Assembly: GCA_048498835.1 (NCBI GenBank) | Contig: JBEHXF010000025.1 | Coordinates: 1-28,051 of the forward strand | Reading direction: 5' to 3' | DNA from: Chlamydiota bacterium | GTDB lineage: Bacteria; Chlamydiota; Chlamydiia; Chlamydiales; SM23-39 | DNA length: 28,051 bases | Shown: positions 16,809 through 19,166 of the stretch, in pieces | How positions within the stretch are numbered: position 1 is the stretch's first letter | How the letters are laid out: each line of letters starts with the position of its first letter | Position numbers and translations under genes: made by a program | The notes under the pieces: generated by a model | Told to the model about the DNA's origin: nothing | What the model saw: only the letters and a program-made list of their open reading frames with translations | Database searches by the model: none

Positions 16809-17228
16809 CTAGCGATTGTAGTATAAATAATTGGCTGTGCTCAGGACCTTATAAACGGTTTCAAGCCCCGCCTTGAATCCCCACGGATGAAATTCTGCTA
16901 TGGTATCTTTAAGCTCGGATAGTGCATGAGGTGCAAACTTCACAAAATCGCCGGCTTGAATATCTCCCGGAGCTTCTCTCCATTCGATTTCATCAAAATG
17001 ATCGTTTTCTAATCGCGCTGGGATAGATTCACTGAAAACTGGTATCTGATCATCTGCTATTTCACACTTCGCATCGACAATTATCTGAATAGCTCTCTCT
17101 TTCATCGGTTTGGGATCAGAAGAGACACACTCAACGCGTTTGAGTGAGAGATTGCTAAGAGATATATTTTTTTTGGAAATTTGTTCTTCAATTCTTACTA
17201 AATAAGATTGTGGTTTTACAGGATGCAT
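16809..17228 (-). CDS. Tandem paralogue family member 5 (last in transcription order)
   Basis: Shares IEE..SKK...LKRV and WREAPGDIQAGDFVKF...FHPWGFKAGLETVYKV with its neighbours. ATG at 17228 preferred over TTG at 17240. Confidence 0.85.
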   Translation of the reverse strand: MHPVKPQSYLVRIEEQISKKNISLSNLSLKRVECVSSDPKPMKERAIQIIVDAKCEIADDQIPVFSESIPARLENDHFDEIEWREAPGDIQAGDFVKFAPHALSELKDTIAEFHPWGFKAGLETVYKVLSTANYLYYNR

Positions 17229-17258
17229 TTTCTTTTCCAATAAAGAGCTTATTGTTTT

Positions 17259-17678
17259 TTAATTTTGAGAGGGAGGGAGGGTTATTTGAATGACTTTGTA
17301 AGCAGTTTGAATGGCAGCTTGATAACCAGCTGGATGAAATTTTTTAATAGTCTCGGTAAGGAGTTGTTTAGGGGACTCTCCAAAAATTACATAATCGCCA
17401 ACTTTAATGTCGCCAGGAGCTTCTCTCCATTTTGTTGTATCTGGTTGCGGTGTGAGTGTCGGTGCTCCTAGATCAACAAAATCACCATCGTCTGAATCTG
17501 ATACGAAATCATAATCTAGTTCACCCATAGTTTGAATCTTCCTCTCTGACAAAGGTTTTGGTGAAGAGGGGAGGAGTTCGACCCGTTTTACCCAAGAATT
17601 TACCAGAGGCATATTTTTTTTGTTTTCTAAGTTTTCGAAAGTAACAAAAAAGTAGTTGTTATTGATTGAGGAAGCCAT
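17259..17678 (-). CDS. Tandem paralogue family member 4
   Basis: VTFEN..NKK...WVKRV and WREAPGDIKVGDYVIF...FHPAGYQAAIQTAYKV. Confidence 0.88.
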   Translation of the reverse strand: MASSINNNYFFVTFENLENKKNMPLVNSWVKRVELLPSSPKPLSERKIQTMGELDYDFVSDSDDGDFVDLGAPTLTPQPDTTKWREAPGDIKVGDYVIFGESPKQLLTETIKKFHPAGYQAAIQTAYKVIQITLPPSQN

Positions 17679-17693
17679 AATAGTTGCAAAACT

Positions 17694-18194
17694 CTAGTTT
17701 TTGTGGATTGTTAATTGAATGACCTTATAAGCGGTTTCGAGGCCTGCCTCAAGTCCTTTGGGGTGTCGCCGTGCGATGAACTTTTTACATTCTTTCACAG
17801 AAGATTGTGGAAAGACGACAAAATCGCCGACTTTAATTTCACCGTCTACTGTTTTCCAGGATAATTCAGGAATGGCTCGTGCGGGCTTCTCTTGAATGGG
17901 TTCAAGAACAGGCGACGAAGGTGGATTGATTGGTAAAATATCGTAATCATTATCGTCTTCGAGAACTTCCCACTCAGAATCGTCTTTGGTCAACTTTAAG
18001 ACTTCAGCAACTCTGTCTGTCAAAGGTCTTGATGATGTTTTATGAGTTGATGCAGCATTGCTTTGGATGAGGGATTCAGATGTAGAAGATGCGAGTTCAA
18101 CGCGTTGAAGCCACAGAGTATCGAATAAATCTGTTTTTTTTGAGATAGGTTCTTCGATTGTCGCTGTTGCGCTTCTTCGAACTGGATGAGCCAT
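17694..18194 (-). CDS. Tandem paralogue family member 3
   Basis: TIEEPISKK...WLQRV and WKTVDGEIKVGDFVVF...HPKGLEAGLETAYKV. AGGAAA RBS. Confidence 0.88.
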   Translation of the reverse strand: MAHPVRRSATATIEEPISKKTDLFDTLWLQRVELASSTSESLIQSNAASTHKTSSRPLTDRVAEVLKLTKDDSEWEVLEDDNDYDILPINPPSSPVLEPIQEKPARAIPELSWKTVDGEIKVGDFVVFPQSSVKECKKFIARRHPKGLEAGLETAYKVIQLTIHKN

Positions 18195-18302
18195 ATTATT
18201 TTCCTAAATACAAAGAGGATGAATAAAATTTGTTTAAAACCTGACGTTTCTCTTTAATAAGGAGAAATAGAATAAACCGGTCTTAGAAAAAAATCCAGTC
18301 TC

Positions 18303-18611
18303 TTAGAAACCAAAAAGGGGGAGGGTCATATTAACAACTTTGTAAACTGTCTTGACACCGACCTCAAACCCTTCAGGGTGGAACTTATCAATGGTTTGTT
18401 TAAGCCAAGCTGACTTTTCGGGTCGAAACATCACCTCATGGCCGACTGAAAAATCCCCCGGAACGATCGTATATTCTACTCGATTATGGTGTGCTTTCTC
18501 TTCTGATGTGTGAACCCGCCTGAGCCAAGTATTGCCCAGCGATAATTCTTTTTTAGTAGTGGGCTCTTGGATTGTAACGACGTAGTGCCATCTTGGGATA
18601 AAACAGACCAT
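18303..18611 (-). CDS. Tandem paralogue family member 2 (minimal, almost no insert)
   Basis: VTIQEPTTKK...WLRRV and YTIVPGDFSVGHEVMF...FHPEGFEVGVKTVYKV. AGGAAA RBS. Confidence 0.85.
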   Translation of the reverse strand: MVCFIPRWHYVVTIQEPTTKKELSLGNTWLRRVHTSEEKAHHNRVEYTIVPGDFSVGHEVMFRPEKSAWLKQTIDKFHPEGFEVGVKTVYKVVNMTLPLFGF

Positions 18612-18722
18612 ATTTCGTTTCCTAAAGTTGTCATTTTTTTTAAATCTACGAAAAAATAAACCAGTTTTAGAGAAAAAATCAAAGTGGTAGTAAAAAGGTG
18701 GTGACTTCCTAGGTTTTCTAAG

Positions 18723-19166
18723 CTAATCAGGAAAAGCCACTTCAGTCACTTTATAGGCGGTCTTTAGTACCTCGTCATATGTTTGTTGAGTATACTGTTC
18801 GATAAGAATTTTAATTGAAGATGACTGATCTGTGAACATCACATAATCTCCGGCTTTAATGTCATCCGTAGCAACTTTCTCCTGAGTGTTATTTTCAGAT
18901 TTTGTTAGTTCTGAAGAATGCTTATCAGCGATAGCTGGATTTGGATTTTTTGTTTCTGGAGAAATAATCTTGACAGTTTGGATCACACAGAAATCATCTT
19001 CTTTATTGTCATCTAAGACAATTTGAGAAGATATGTCTCCATTTAATGTCGTAATTTGAAAAGGGACAACGCGTTTTAGCCAATAGCTGTTAATTGTTAC
19101 TTTCTTTTCGTCTTTGTGTTCAAATGTTATGTTTGGATAAATTTTTTGACCAATTGGAGAAGCCAT
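18723..19166 (-). CDS. Tandem paralogue family member 1 (most divergent)
   Basis: ITFEHKDEKK...WLKRV and DDIKAGDYVMF...LKTAYKV. AGGAAA RBS. Confidence 0.85.
   Translation of the reverse strand: MASPIGQKIYPNITFEHKDEKKVTINSYWLKRVVPFQITTLNGDISSQIVLDDNKEDDFCVIQTVKIISPETKNPNPAIADKHSSELTKSENNTQEKVATDDIKAGDYVMFTDQSSSIKILIEQYTQQTYDEVLKTAYKVTEVAFPD

What the first reader, a model, noticed from the sequence alone, without database searches (positions are those of the whole stretch)
16809..19166. Tandem array of five diverged small paralogues of an unrecognised family
Seen: five co-oriented ORFs of 102-166 aa immediately downstream of mfd, visibly more AT-rich than mfd. They share an N-block (V/I-T/R-I/F-E/Q...KK...W-L/V-x-RV) and a C-block (GD-I-x-V/A-GD-F/Y-V-x-F...I..FHPxG....TA/VYKV). 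A hypervariable insert separates the blocks. Several have short Ser/Pro/Asn-rich N-termini (MASSINNN, MASPIGQ, MAHPVRRS) and none has a Sec signal. Inference: a lineage-specific expansion of secreted effectors, since chlamydiae use type III secretion with such unstructured N-termini. I recognise no named family.
Basis: partly seen in the sequence, partly recalled or inferred. Interest (0 to 1): 0.8.

Follow-up and report, generated by a model that had tools for sequence, protein, structure and literature searches.

The report
Chlamydial gene array with autophagy-docking motifs
An uncultured relative of Chlamydia carries five related small genes, seen in no other genome searched, whose proteins hang a floppy loop with textbook docking motifs for the host autophagy protein ATG8 on a rearranged small beta-barrel, so they may be injected adaptors that grip the host's self-eating machinery; neither binding nor secretion has been shown.

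Summary
The array is real: five paralogues (24-45% identity, synonymous sites near saturation) sit after mfd at a gene-insertion hotspot of an environmental chlamydia that has a type III secretion system. No homologue was found outside this genome. Arrays of orphan paralogues are common here, so the array alone is ordinary.

(1) The two conserved blocks are predicted to fold together (pLDDT 76) into a circularly permuted SH3/Tudor-like barrel resembling hybrid Tudor HTD-2 (Z 4.6, weak). The variable insert is a disordered loop joining the old termini. (2) That loop carries acid-flanked [WFY]xx[ILV] motifs of the LIR/AIM (ATG8-binding) type. Five strict matches lie in 3 of 4 long inserts, against 0.13 expected, and two members rank first and second of 1792 ORFs for motif density.

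Best reading (0.45): secreted, non-enzymatic adaptors that bind host ATG8. The motif was spotted post hoc, paralogues are not independent, N-terminal secretion evidence is weak, and the ATG8 co-fold could not be run. Novelty: new variant of a known kind (LIR-bearing effectors such as RavZ and Lem26).

The parts
18723..19166 (-). Paralogue A, 147 aa; the most diverged member, lacks FHPxG; one strict LIR-type motif
18303..18611 (-). Paralogue B, 102 aa; natural minimal form: barrel with a 7-12 aa linker, no acidic loop, no LIR-type motif, pI 8.8
17694..18194 (-). Paralogue C, 166 aa; longest loop (about 75 aa) with two tandem LIR-type motifs
17259..17678 (-). Paralogue D, 139 aa; two tandem motifs that match both xLIR and hfAIM patterns; no ribosome-binding site in its 15-nt spacer
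16809..17228 (-). Paralogue E, 139 aa from the ATG at 17228; one looser acid-flanked FxxI core
18981..19001 (-). LIR/AIM-type motif of A, residues 56-62 (EDDFCVI)
   Evidence: hfAIM pattern match
17961..17981 (-). First LIR/AIM-type motif of C, residues 72-78 (DSEWEVL)
   Evidence: xLIR and hfAIM match
17934..17954 (-). Second LIR/AIM-type motif of C, residues 81-87 (DNDYDIL)
   Evidence: hfAIM match
17502..17522 (-). First LIR/AIM-type motif of D, residues 53-59 (ELDYDFV)
   Evidence: xLIR and hfAIM match
17469..17489 (-). Second LIR/AIM-type motif of D, residues 64-70 (DGDFVDL); also fits one SUMO-binding pattern
16986..17009 (-). Looser acid-flanked core of E, residues 74-81 (ENDHFDEI); fails xLIR and the two hfAIM patterns tested
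18612..18722 (-). A-B spacer (111 nt), homologous to the B-C spacer; AGGA-type ribosome-binding site
18195..18302 (-). B-C spacer (108 nt), homologous to the A-B and mfd-A spacers; holds two further in-frame stops
19227..22439 (-). mfd (flank; upstream boundary of the variable site)
   Evidence: Pfam TRCF, CarD_TRCF_RID, UvrB_inter
14082..16730 (-). 882-aa unannotated protein (flank); member of a family found in 46 of 60 other genomes of the order; its homologue directly follows mfd in G002

Best explanation
The five genes arose by local tandem duplication of a gene-plus-upstream-spacer unit at a gene-insertion hotspot after mfd (shown). Each encodes a small SH3/Tudor-like beta-barrel read in circularly permuted order: the N-block supplies the last strands and the 3-10 turn, and the C-block supplies the first strand, a two-helix insertion and the second strand (predicted; moderately supported). 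The permutation puts a free loop where the old termini meet. In four members this loop is long, acidic and disordered and displays one or two [WFY]xx[ILV] motifs behind acidic residues (shown in sequence). I infer that the proteins are exported by the type III system into the host cytosol. There the loop would dock into the LIR-docking site of host ATG8/LC3/GABARAP, while the barrel binds a second partner that differs between paralogues (a host protein, an inclusion-membrane protein or a cargo). They would act as non-enzymatic mimics of selective-autophagy receptors, either competing host receptors off ATG8 to protect the inclusion or tethering ATG8-bearing membrane or cargo to it. Export, ATG8 binding and the barrel's partner are all inferred, not shown.
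For: Motifs: five matches to the two hfAIM patterns printed in PMC8634866 Table 2 lie in 3 of 4 long inserts, against 2-6% per insert in 20,000 shuffles. Six acid-flanked cores in 4 of 4 inserts compare with 0.44 expected. With acidic positions held fixed, 5 were observed against a mean of 0.125, and 0 of 20,000 shuffles reached 5; two motifs in one insert had P 0.0004 (C) and 0.0009 (D). D and C rank first and second of 1792 ORFs by motif density and are the only 2 of 416 ORFs of 95-175 aa with two motifs. Only 2 of 16 members of four other small-orphan arrays in the genome carry one motif each. The homologous C and D motifs keep the aromatic/+3-aliphatic grammar while the residues change (W/Y, Y/F). 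The motifs lie in the part modelled as disordered (pLDDT <50 for residues 36-97 of A). SIM, FFAT, YxxPhi and DxF patterns each explain at most two motifs. Fold: the model of B has pLDDT 76 in all five runs (74-76) with element order b-b-3/10-b-linker-b-a-a-b. Its top matches include ARID4B 34-90 (Z 4.6, rmsd 2.8, 57 aligned), RBBP1, JMJD2C, YdhK and Ube2O. ARID4B HTD-2 is residues 35-86 in the order b3, b4, 3/10, b1', b2' (PMC8038949 passages). The ESM Atlas leads are DUF3104, Tudor_3 and Agenet clusters at 0.76-0.81. A distant sixth relative in the genome has two C-blocks 71 residues apart without long loops. Context: type III genes are present, and N-termini are mildly substrate-like. Tandem arrays of secreted, eukaryote-domain families are known in environmental chlamydiae (PMC4209131 passages). 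LIR-bearing bacterial effectors are known (RavZ, PMC8634866 passages; Lem26, PMC12977470 abstract).
Against: The motif was noticed by eye before it was tested, and the paralogues share ancestry, so the combined P values overstate the case. A single ancestral motif has a chance of about 0.01-0.06 per insert. LIR patterns are known for false positives (PMC5119064 passages), and 222 of 1792 ORFs in this genome match an hfAIM pattern somewhere. B has no motif and E fails the strict patterns. Only two hfAIM patterns were available to test. The secretion evidence is weak (AUC about 0.73; E at the 72nd percentile) and the free N-termini are short. All fold matches have Z below 5 and Foldseek found nothing at E <= 0.001; inteins score as high (Z 4.7). 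The N-block does not match the sixth relative above chance (P 0.28 and 0.45). The host is unknown, and no partner for the barrel can be named.
Confidence: 0.45

Rival explanations
1. Cytoplasmic or envelope proteins of the bacterium itself: small SH3/KOW-like barrels that bind nucleic acid, RNA polymerase or another bacterial protein. The acidic loop is then a linker or a nucleic-acid mimic whose aromatic residues match LIR patterns by chance in one ancestor.
For: SH3/KOW/Tudor barrels are common cytoplasmic bacterial modules (established knowledge). The fold neighbours include YdhK and NusG. The N-termini are short and partly structural. B lacks the loop altogether, and a single ancestral chance motif has P 0.01-0.06.
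Against: The tandem motifs are kept in C and D with residue swaps, while most of the rest of the loops does not align. The family is missing from 5 of 5 congeners, unlike a housekeeping regulator. Descent from the neighbouring Mfd RID domain was tested and gave only a generic 10-column match.
Confidence: 0.22
2. Secreted effectors, whose acid-aromatic loop binds a host partner other than ATG8: a FIP200/Atg11-type claw, SUMO, an adaptor-complex subunit or a tyrosine-phosphorylation reader.
For: One D motif fits a SIM-type pattern (P 0.04) and two motifs are YxxPhi (P 0.055). That acid-flanked hydrophobic motifs are shared among these binding modes is recalled, not tested here.
Against: W, Y and F are interchangeable at the first position, which fits LIR grammar and not tyrosine-specific motifs. 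Three other SIM patterns and FFAT gave no excess.
Confidence: 0.2
3. Relics or tamed genes of a phage or other mobile element, or anti-phage proteins, parked at an insertion hotspot.
For: The genes are AT-rich (1st-31st GC percentile) at a hypervariable site (50 clusters of first genes among 64 loci). One non-self hit in the 1.84-billion-protein search is a protein with repeated KVGD-type units.
Against: No PHROG family matches more than one member, PADLOC gives one weak hit, the viral fold library gives nothing at E <= 0.001, viral contigs give 0 of 277 candidates, and Pfam shows no integrase or transposase among the 25 window proteins scanned. Other orphan arrays in this genome are equally AT-rich.
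Confidence: 0.09
4. One long poly-SH3 repeat gene broken by stops or read through them, because all five ORFs, mfd and the next gene share one reading frame.
For: All junctions are in frame and three have a single stop. The C-block of one gene followed by the N-block of the next gives canonical SH3 order.
Against: Both TAA and TAG are used, and the B-C spacer has two more stops. Four of five genes have their own ribosome-binding site. 148 of 372 comparable junctions in the genome are in frame, and another array (contig C3) is also in frame. The spacers are duplicated copies, so the junctions are not independent. Junctions read with X at the stop match no Pfam family.
Confidence: 0.04

Closest known systems
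Legionella RavZ and Lem26 (ATG8-binding bacterial effectors; PMC8634866 passages, PMC12977470 abstract)
   Same: Proteins of an intracellular bacterium with LIR/AIM motifs; RavZ has two LIRs in tandem, as C and D appear to have.
   Different: RavZ and Lem26 are enzymes (protease, ADP-ribosyltransferase) delivered by type IV secretion and tested at the bench. These proteins are 102-166 aa, show no catalytic domain and no sequence relation to them, and are untested.
Phytophthora PexRD54 (PMC4775223 and PMC5025708, search listing with start of abstract)
   Same: An AIM-bearing effector that displaces a host cargo receptor from ATG8; the closest functional analogy for an adaptor or decoy.
   Different: It is an oomycete RXLR effector with a modular repeat body; here the body is one permuted beta-barrel and the motif sits in an internal loop of a bacterial protein.
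Hybrid Tudor domain HTD-2 of ARID4A/ARID4B/JMJD2 (PDB 7dm4, 2mam, 2xdp) and interdigitated SH3-like pairs (YdhK, Ube2O)
   Same: Strand order b3-b4-3/10-linker-b1'-b2'; the model of B aligns to ARID4B 34-90 at Z 4.6, rmsd 2.8 over 57 residues.
   Different: HTD-2 is half of an interdigitated pair; here the permuted unit stands alone, has two helices between its last strands and a loop of 7-75 residues at the join. Identity is 7-13%. By eye the methyl-lysine aromatic cage is not present (cage positions recalled, not tested).
Expanded F-box/BTB effector families NEX and PEX of Parachlamydiaceae (PMC4209131 passages)
   Same: Lineage-specific birth-and-death expansion in tandem arrays, aimed at a ubiquitin-type host system.
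   Different: Those families have 27-138 members with recognisable eukaryotic domains and tested secretion signals; this one has five members plus one distant relative, no Pfam domain, and only a linear motif.
Chlamydia trachomatis TaiP (CT622) (PMC11412940 passages)
   Same: A chlamydial effector that acts on the ATG8-conjugation machinery (ATG16L1).
   Different: It is described as targeting ATG16L1, not ATG8; that review never uses the term LIR (0 occurrences). No comparison of sequences was made.

Membership tests
LIR/AIM-containing ATG8 binders | Core [WFY]xx[ILV] with neighbouring acidic residues | tested here: met
   A, C and D match hfAIM patterns; C and D match xLIR; E has a looser core; B has none
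LIR/AIM-containing ATG8 binders | Motif in an exposed, disordered segment | tested here: met
   Loop of A has pLDDT <50 (residues 36-97); the loops of C, D and E occupy the same alignment gap but were not modelled themselves
LIR/AIM-containing ATG8 binders | Motif enriched or conserved beyond chance | tested here: met
   post hoc and not independent across paralogues
LIR/AIM-containing ATG8 binders | Predicted docking in the ATG8 LIR-docking site | not tested
LIR/AIM-containing ATG8 binders | Motif-dependent binding to ATG8 | not testable with these tools
   Needs bench work
Chlamydial type III secretion substrates | Type III apparatus in the genome | tested here: met
   SctV 765 bits; adjacent SctU- and CopN-like genes read from sequence
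Chlamydial type III secretion substrates | No Sec signal or membrane segment | tested here: met
   Best 19-residue hydropathy 0.44-1.04
Chlamydial type III secretion substrates | Substrate-like N-terminal composition | tested here: inconclusive
   72nd-98th percentile of soluble proteins with a weak classifier (AUC 0.72-0.73); CopN control 96th-99th
Chlamydial type III secretion substrates | Secretion demonstrated | not testable with these tools
   Needs bench work
SH3/KOW/Tudor-like small beta-barrels (permuted, HTD-2-like) | Barrel topology matching a solved member | tested here: inconclusive
   Recurrent but weak matches, Z 3.8-4.8, tied with inteins; Foldseek best probability 0.63 for RBBP1 at E 1.8
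SH3/KOW/Tudor-like small beta-barrels (permuted, HTD-2-like) | Profile match to a Tudor, KOW or SH3 Pfam family | tested here: not met
   None for the genes or for junctions read in canonical order; Atlas leads score below 0.9
Methyl-lysine-reading Tudor domains | Aromatic cage | tested here: inconclusive
CarD/Mfd RID domain | Profile-profile match along the domain | tested here: not met
   N-block probability 0.1%; C-block 21% over 10 columns only
Phage or defence proteins (PHROGs, PADLOC) | Family match shared by members | tested here: not met

The most novel reading that the evidence does not exclude
A chlamydia has built its own family of selective-autophagy-receptor mimics. A circularly permuted Tudor/SH3 barrel serves as a display scaffold whose termini-joining loop carries tandem ATG8-binding motifs, and paralogues vary the motif (W, Y or F type, one, two or none) and the barrel surface to couple different partners to host ATG8, with the loop-less member B as a competitor. 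These would be the first direct LIR/AIM-type ATG8 binders described in Chlamydiota, and a non-enzymatic design unlike RavZ or Lem26.
Probability: 0.3. Interest if true: 0.8.

Novelty: new variant of a known kind. Interest (0 to 1): 0.58.

Why it matters
How chlamydial inclusions recruit or evade ATG8/LC3 is unsettled (PMC11412940 passages), and I found no chlamydial protein described as binding ATG8 through a LIR (searches; open-licence PMC and bioRxiv only). If these proteins bind ATG8, they give a small, soluble, easily tested set of natural variants, including a loop-less control, for how a symbiont of eukaryotes mimics autophagy receptors without an enzyme. They would also be a natural stand-alone circular permutant of the Tudor/SH3 barrel used as a motif-display scaffold. 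More generally, the case shows that function in orphan effector arrays may be read from short linear motifs in the least conserved segment. The reach is limited because the family is known from one genome.

Tried and rejected
Homologue searches, all negative outside this genome:
- 0 of 40 relatives, including 5 congeners.
- 2 of 399 other scored phylum genomes at E 0.003-0.005, about what chance gives (one genome not scored). 2 of 400 with the widened profile at E 0.005-0.009.
- 4 of 747 candidates, all self (lengths 56-291 only).
- 7 hits among 1.84 billion representatives: 5 self and 2 repeat proteins matched over 24-25 residues.
- 0 of 585, 0 of 600 and 0 of 277 pattern candidates in metagenome, genome and viral contigs.
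- No hit in 80 mfd loci.
- The sixth relative found none in 102 family genomes or among 113 protein candidates.

Family libraries: Pfam, PHROGs, NCBIfam, PADLOC and PDB sequences gave nothing usable. The Atlas search with D gave only unnamed clusters at 0.75-0.76. Foldseek on PDB and BFVD gave no match at E <= 0.001; no VIA match reached Z 5.

Ideas rejected:
- Origin from the Mfd RID domain.
- Read-through polyprotein.
- Split intein: inteins appear among the fold hits, but no intein family matched in Pfam and the terminal splicing residues (recalled) are not evident.
- SIM, FFAT, YxxPhi or DxF as the general loop motif.
- Relation to four other orphan arrays in the genome (hhalign probability <1%).
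- Promoter and terminator scans were at chance level. The conserved spacer 15-mer occurs intergenically only in this array.

Not obtained: no sequencing run was listed, so expression and strain variation were not examined. The ATG8 co-fold gave no verdict because the predictor was not available. The original hfAIM paper was not held, so only two of its patterns were used. Supplements were not read; those of PMC6693458 (seen only as a search listing; LIR predictions for effectors of 56 pathogens) may hold predicted chlamydial LIRs.
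Full report
Observation. The window comes from a Chlamydiota genome: it holds a MOMP-like gene, the histone-like Hc1, alaS and mfd. The genome has 1.97 Mb, 46% GC and 97% completeness. Five co-oriented minus-strand ORFs follow mfd at 60 nt: A 18723-19166, B 18303-18611, C 17694-18194, D 17259-17678 and E 16809-17228. All ten pairwise alignments exceed 1000 of 1000 shuffles. Core identity is 26-45%, synonymous sites are near saturation and pN is well below pS, so these are old, selected protein genes. 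They are AT-rich (GC 0.345-0.448 against 0.521 for mfd) and have no hydrophobic segment. The mfd-A, A-B and B-C spacers are homologous, so the duplicated unit included upstream DNA.

Distribution. No homologue was found outside this genome. The profile matched 0 of 40 relatives including 5 congeners. In 399 and 400 other phylum genomes it gave only chance-level hits. Among 1.84 billion representatives it found only itself plus two short repeat matches, and nothing in metagenome, genome or viral contigs. Pfam, NCBIfam, PHROGs, PADLOC and PDB sequences name no family. The site is an insertion hotspot. Each of five congeners has different genes after mfd. In 64 of 80 related loci with enough downstream DNA, the first gene falls into 50 clusters; the largest (9) is the nucleosidase-type gene that lies at 12225-13040 here. 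In G002 a homologue of the 882-aa neighbour directly follows mfd, which suggests the array entered between the two. Orphan arrays are common in this genome: four arrays of five and five of four were listed. The array as such is therefore ordinary for an environmental chlamydia, as in the tandem NEX/PEX families (PMC4209131, passages).

Fold. The model of A was poor overall (pLDDT 54) because residues 36-97 are disordered. The model of B, which lacks the insert, reached pLDDT 76 in all five runs, with the order strand, strand, 3-10 turn, strand, linker, strand, helix, helix, strand. The two blocks thus form one domain. The structural matches are weak but recurrent: ARID4B residues 34-90 (Z 4.6, rmsd 2.8, 57 aligned), RBBP1, JMJD2C 905-963, YdhK and Ube2O, tied with intein Hint domains. 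Foldseek found nothing significant. ARID4B HTD-2 is residues 35-86 with the order b3, b4, 3-10, b1', b2' (PMC8038949, passages), that is, a circularly permuted Tudor barrel, and it matches the element order of the model. The C-block opens with the KVGDxVxF pattern typical of the first strand of KOW/SH3-like barrels (recalled). The Atlas leads for B are DUF3104, Tudor_3 and Agenet clusters at 0.76-0.81, below the reliable range. A 260-aa protein on contig C30 is the best non-member hit of the C-block profile (E 0.007 among 1792 ORFs; hhalign 70%; 0 of 2000 shuffles). It has two C-blocks 71 residues apart joined by a 30-residue segment. This fits a tandem precursor in which the blocks run in canonical order, but that segment does not match the N-block above chance. 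I put the permuted-barrel reading at about 0.65-0.7. Descent from the adjacent Mfd RID domain was not supported.

The loop. The insert sits where the permutation joins the old termini and is 7-75 residues long. In A, C, D and E it is acidic (10-14 D/E). Reading it by eye showed aromatic residues behind acidic runs with an aliphatic residue three places later, the grammar of LIR/AIM motifs that bind ATG8. I then tested the xLIR pattern (PMC5119064, passages) and the two hfAIM patterns printed in PMC8634866 Table 2. Strict matches are EDDFCVI in A, DSEWEVL and DNDYDIL in C, and ELDYDFV and DGDFVDL in D. E has a looser ENDHFDEI, and B has none. Shuffled inserts give an hfAIM match in 2-6% of cases. 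Six acid-flanked cores were seen against 0.44 expected, and genome windows of like acidity match in 6%. With the acidic positions held fixed, five matches compare with a mean of 0.125, and two in one insert has P 0.0004-0.0009. D and C rank first and second of 1792 ORFs by motif density and are the only 2 of 416 small ORFs with two motifs. Four other orphan arrays give 2 single matches in 16 proteins. The C and D motif pairs align and have exchanged W for Y and Y for F while keeping the +3 aliphatic residue. Rival motif classes explain at most two motifs each. Against this: the test is post hoc, the paralogues share ancestry, a single ancestral match has P 0.01-0.06, 222 of 1792 ORFs match a pattern somewhere, and such patterns are known to over-predict. 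The co-fold with ATG8, which would have been the independent check, could not be run because the predictor was not available; an ATG8 alignment was prepared.

Secretion. The genome has SctV with adjacent SctU- and CopN-like genes. A classifier trained on 14 Inc-like against 403 soluble proteins of this genome is weak (AUC 0.72-0.73). It places the five N-termini at the 72nd-98th percentile (residues 2-15) and 80th-91st (residues 2-25), with CopN at the 96th-99th. This is mild support only, and the unstructured N-termini are 7-10 residues long. The test of secretion was referred.

Mechanism. Shown: tandem duplication, selection, a two-block domain with a variable loop, the motifs, and a type III system in the genome. 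Predicted: the permuted SH3/Tudor-like barrel and the disorder of the loop. Inferred: export, docking of the loop on host ATG8, and a second partner bound by the barrel. The most likely reading (0.45) is a family of non-enzymatic adaptors that mimic selective-autophagy receptors, shielding the inclusion by competition or tethering ATG8-bearing membrane or cargo to it. The rivals are cytoplasmic barrels with incidental motifs (0.22), effectors with another host partner (0.20), mobile-element relics (0.09) and a read-through repeat gene (0.04). The last arose because all genes share one frame. It fails on mixed and extra stops, separate ribosome-binding sites and a 40% genome baseline.

Comparison and novelty. 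It would work like RavZ, Lem26 or PexRD54 in using LIR/AIM motifs, but it is a member of none of these families and has no catalytic domain. It resembles HTD-2 in topology without meeting any Tudor or SH3 profile. I found no chlamydial LIR-type ATG8 binder and no stand-alone permuted Tudor/SH3 family of this kind in searches of open-licence PMC and bioRxiv; subscription papers and supplements were not seen. The scan's earlier notes hold nothing on this family. Papers seen: passages of PMC8038949, PMC5119064, PMC8634866, PMC4209131, PMC12407897, PMC8666691 and PMC11412940; abstracts of PMC9907853 and PMC12977470; listings only for PMC4775223, PMC5025708 and PMC6693458.

Verdict: a real feature and a new variant of a known kind; interest 0.58, rising to about 0.8 if ATG8 binding is shown.

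Noticed in passing
G000 C30:6339-7121 + (L170:4840-5622): 260-aa distant relative with two C-block copies and no acidic loop, plus a twice-repeated C-terminal motif; no homologue in 102 family genomes or the protein database. Not folded.
   Followed up: partly
L052:1324-1809 + (G251 C3, same order, another family): A chlamydial genome encodes an ATG8-like protein (PF02991, 45.6 bits, over cut-off in 1 of 400 genomes) on a long contig, with a Pro-rich N-terminal extension, no terminal lipidation glycine and a probable degenerate tandem copy upstream; possibly a host-derived ATG8 mimic.
   Followed up: partly
window 14082-16730 -: 882-aa unannotated protein of a roughly 900-1000 aa family found in 46 of 60 other genomes of the order, with a conserved Q-x-[VI]G[SN]CFA motif that looks like a papain-type cysteine nucleophile (likeness recalled); no Pfam, NCBIfam or PDB match; one paralogue on C28.
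   Followed up: partly
G000 C55:7073-7594 - (L171): 173-aa Pro/Ser-rich orphan with one acid-flanked W-type LIR-like motif, a polyproline run and a Cys pair near the C-terminus; looks like another motif-bearing effector.
   Followed up: no
G000 contigs C5, C22, C27, C3, C10, C13, C17, C59, C63: Several further tandem arrays of 3-5 paralogues, many with effector-like N-termini; four were checked and are unrelated to this family.
   Followed up: partly
L016:8631-9713 (G003, after mfd): At the same site a congener carries a RING/U-box-like protein (weak Pfam hits below cut-off) and a protein with an Inc-like hydrophobic stretch, consistent with the site collecting host-interaction genes.
   Followed up: no
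window 14082-25991 -: Nine consecutive minus-strand genes, from the 268-aa ORF at 25991 through alaS, mfd and the array to the 882-aa gene, share one reading frame; the genome baseline for in-frame junctions is 148 of 372. Judged a coincidence.
   Followed up: yes
window 18256-18270 and 18640-18654 - (approximate): A 15-nt near-palindromic element is shared by the A-B and B-C spacers and found intergenically nowhere else in the genome; it may be a promoter or operator element or simply a duplication relic.
   Followed up: partly
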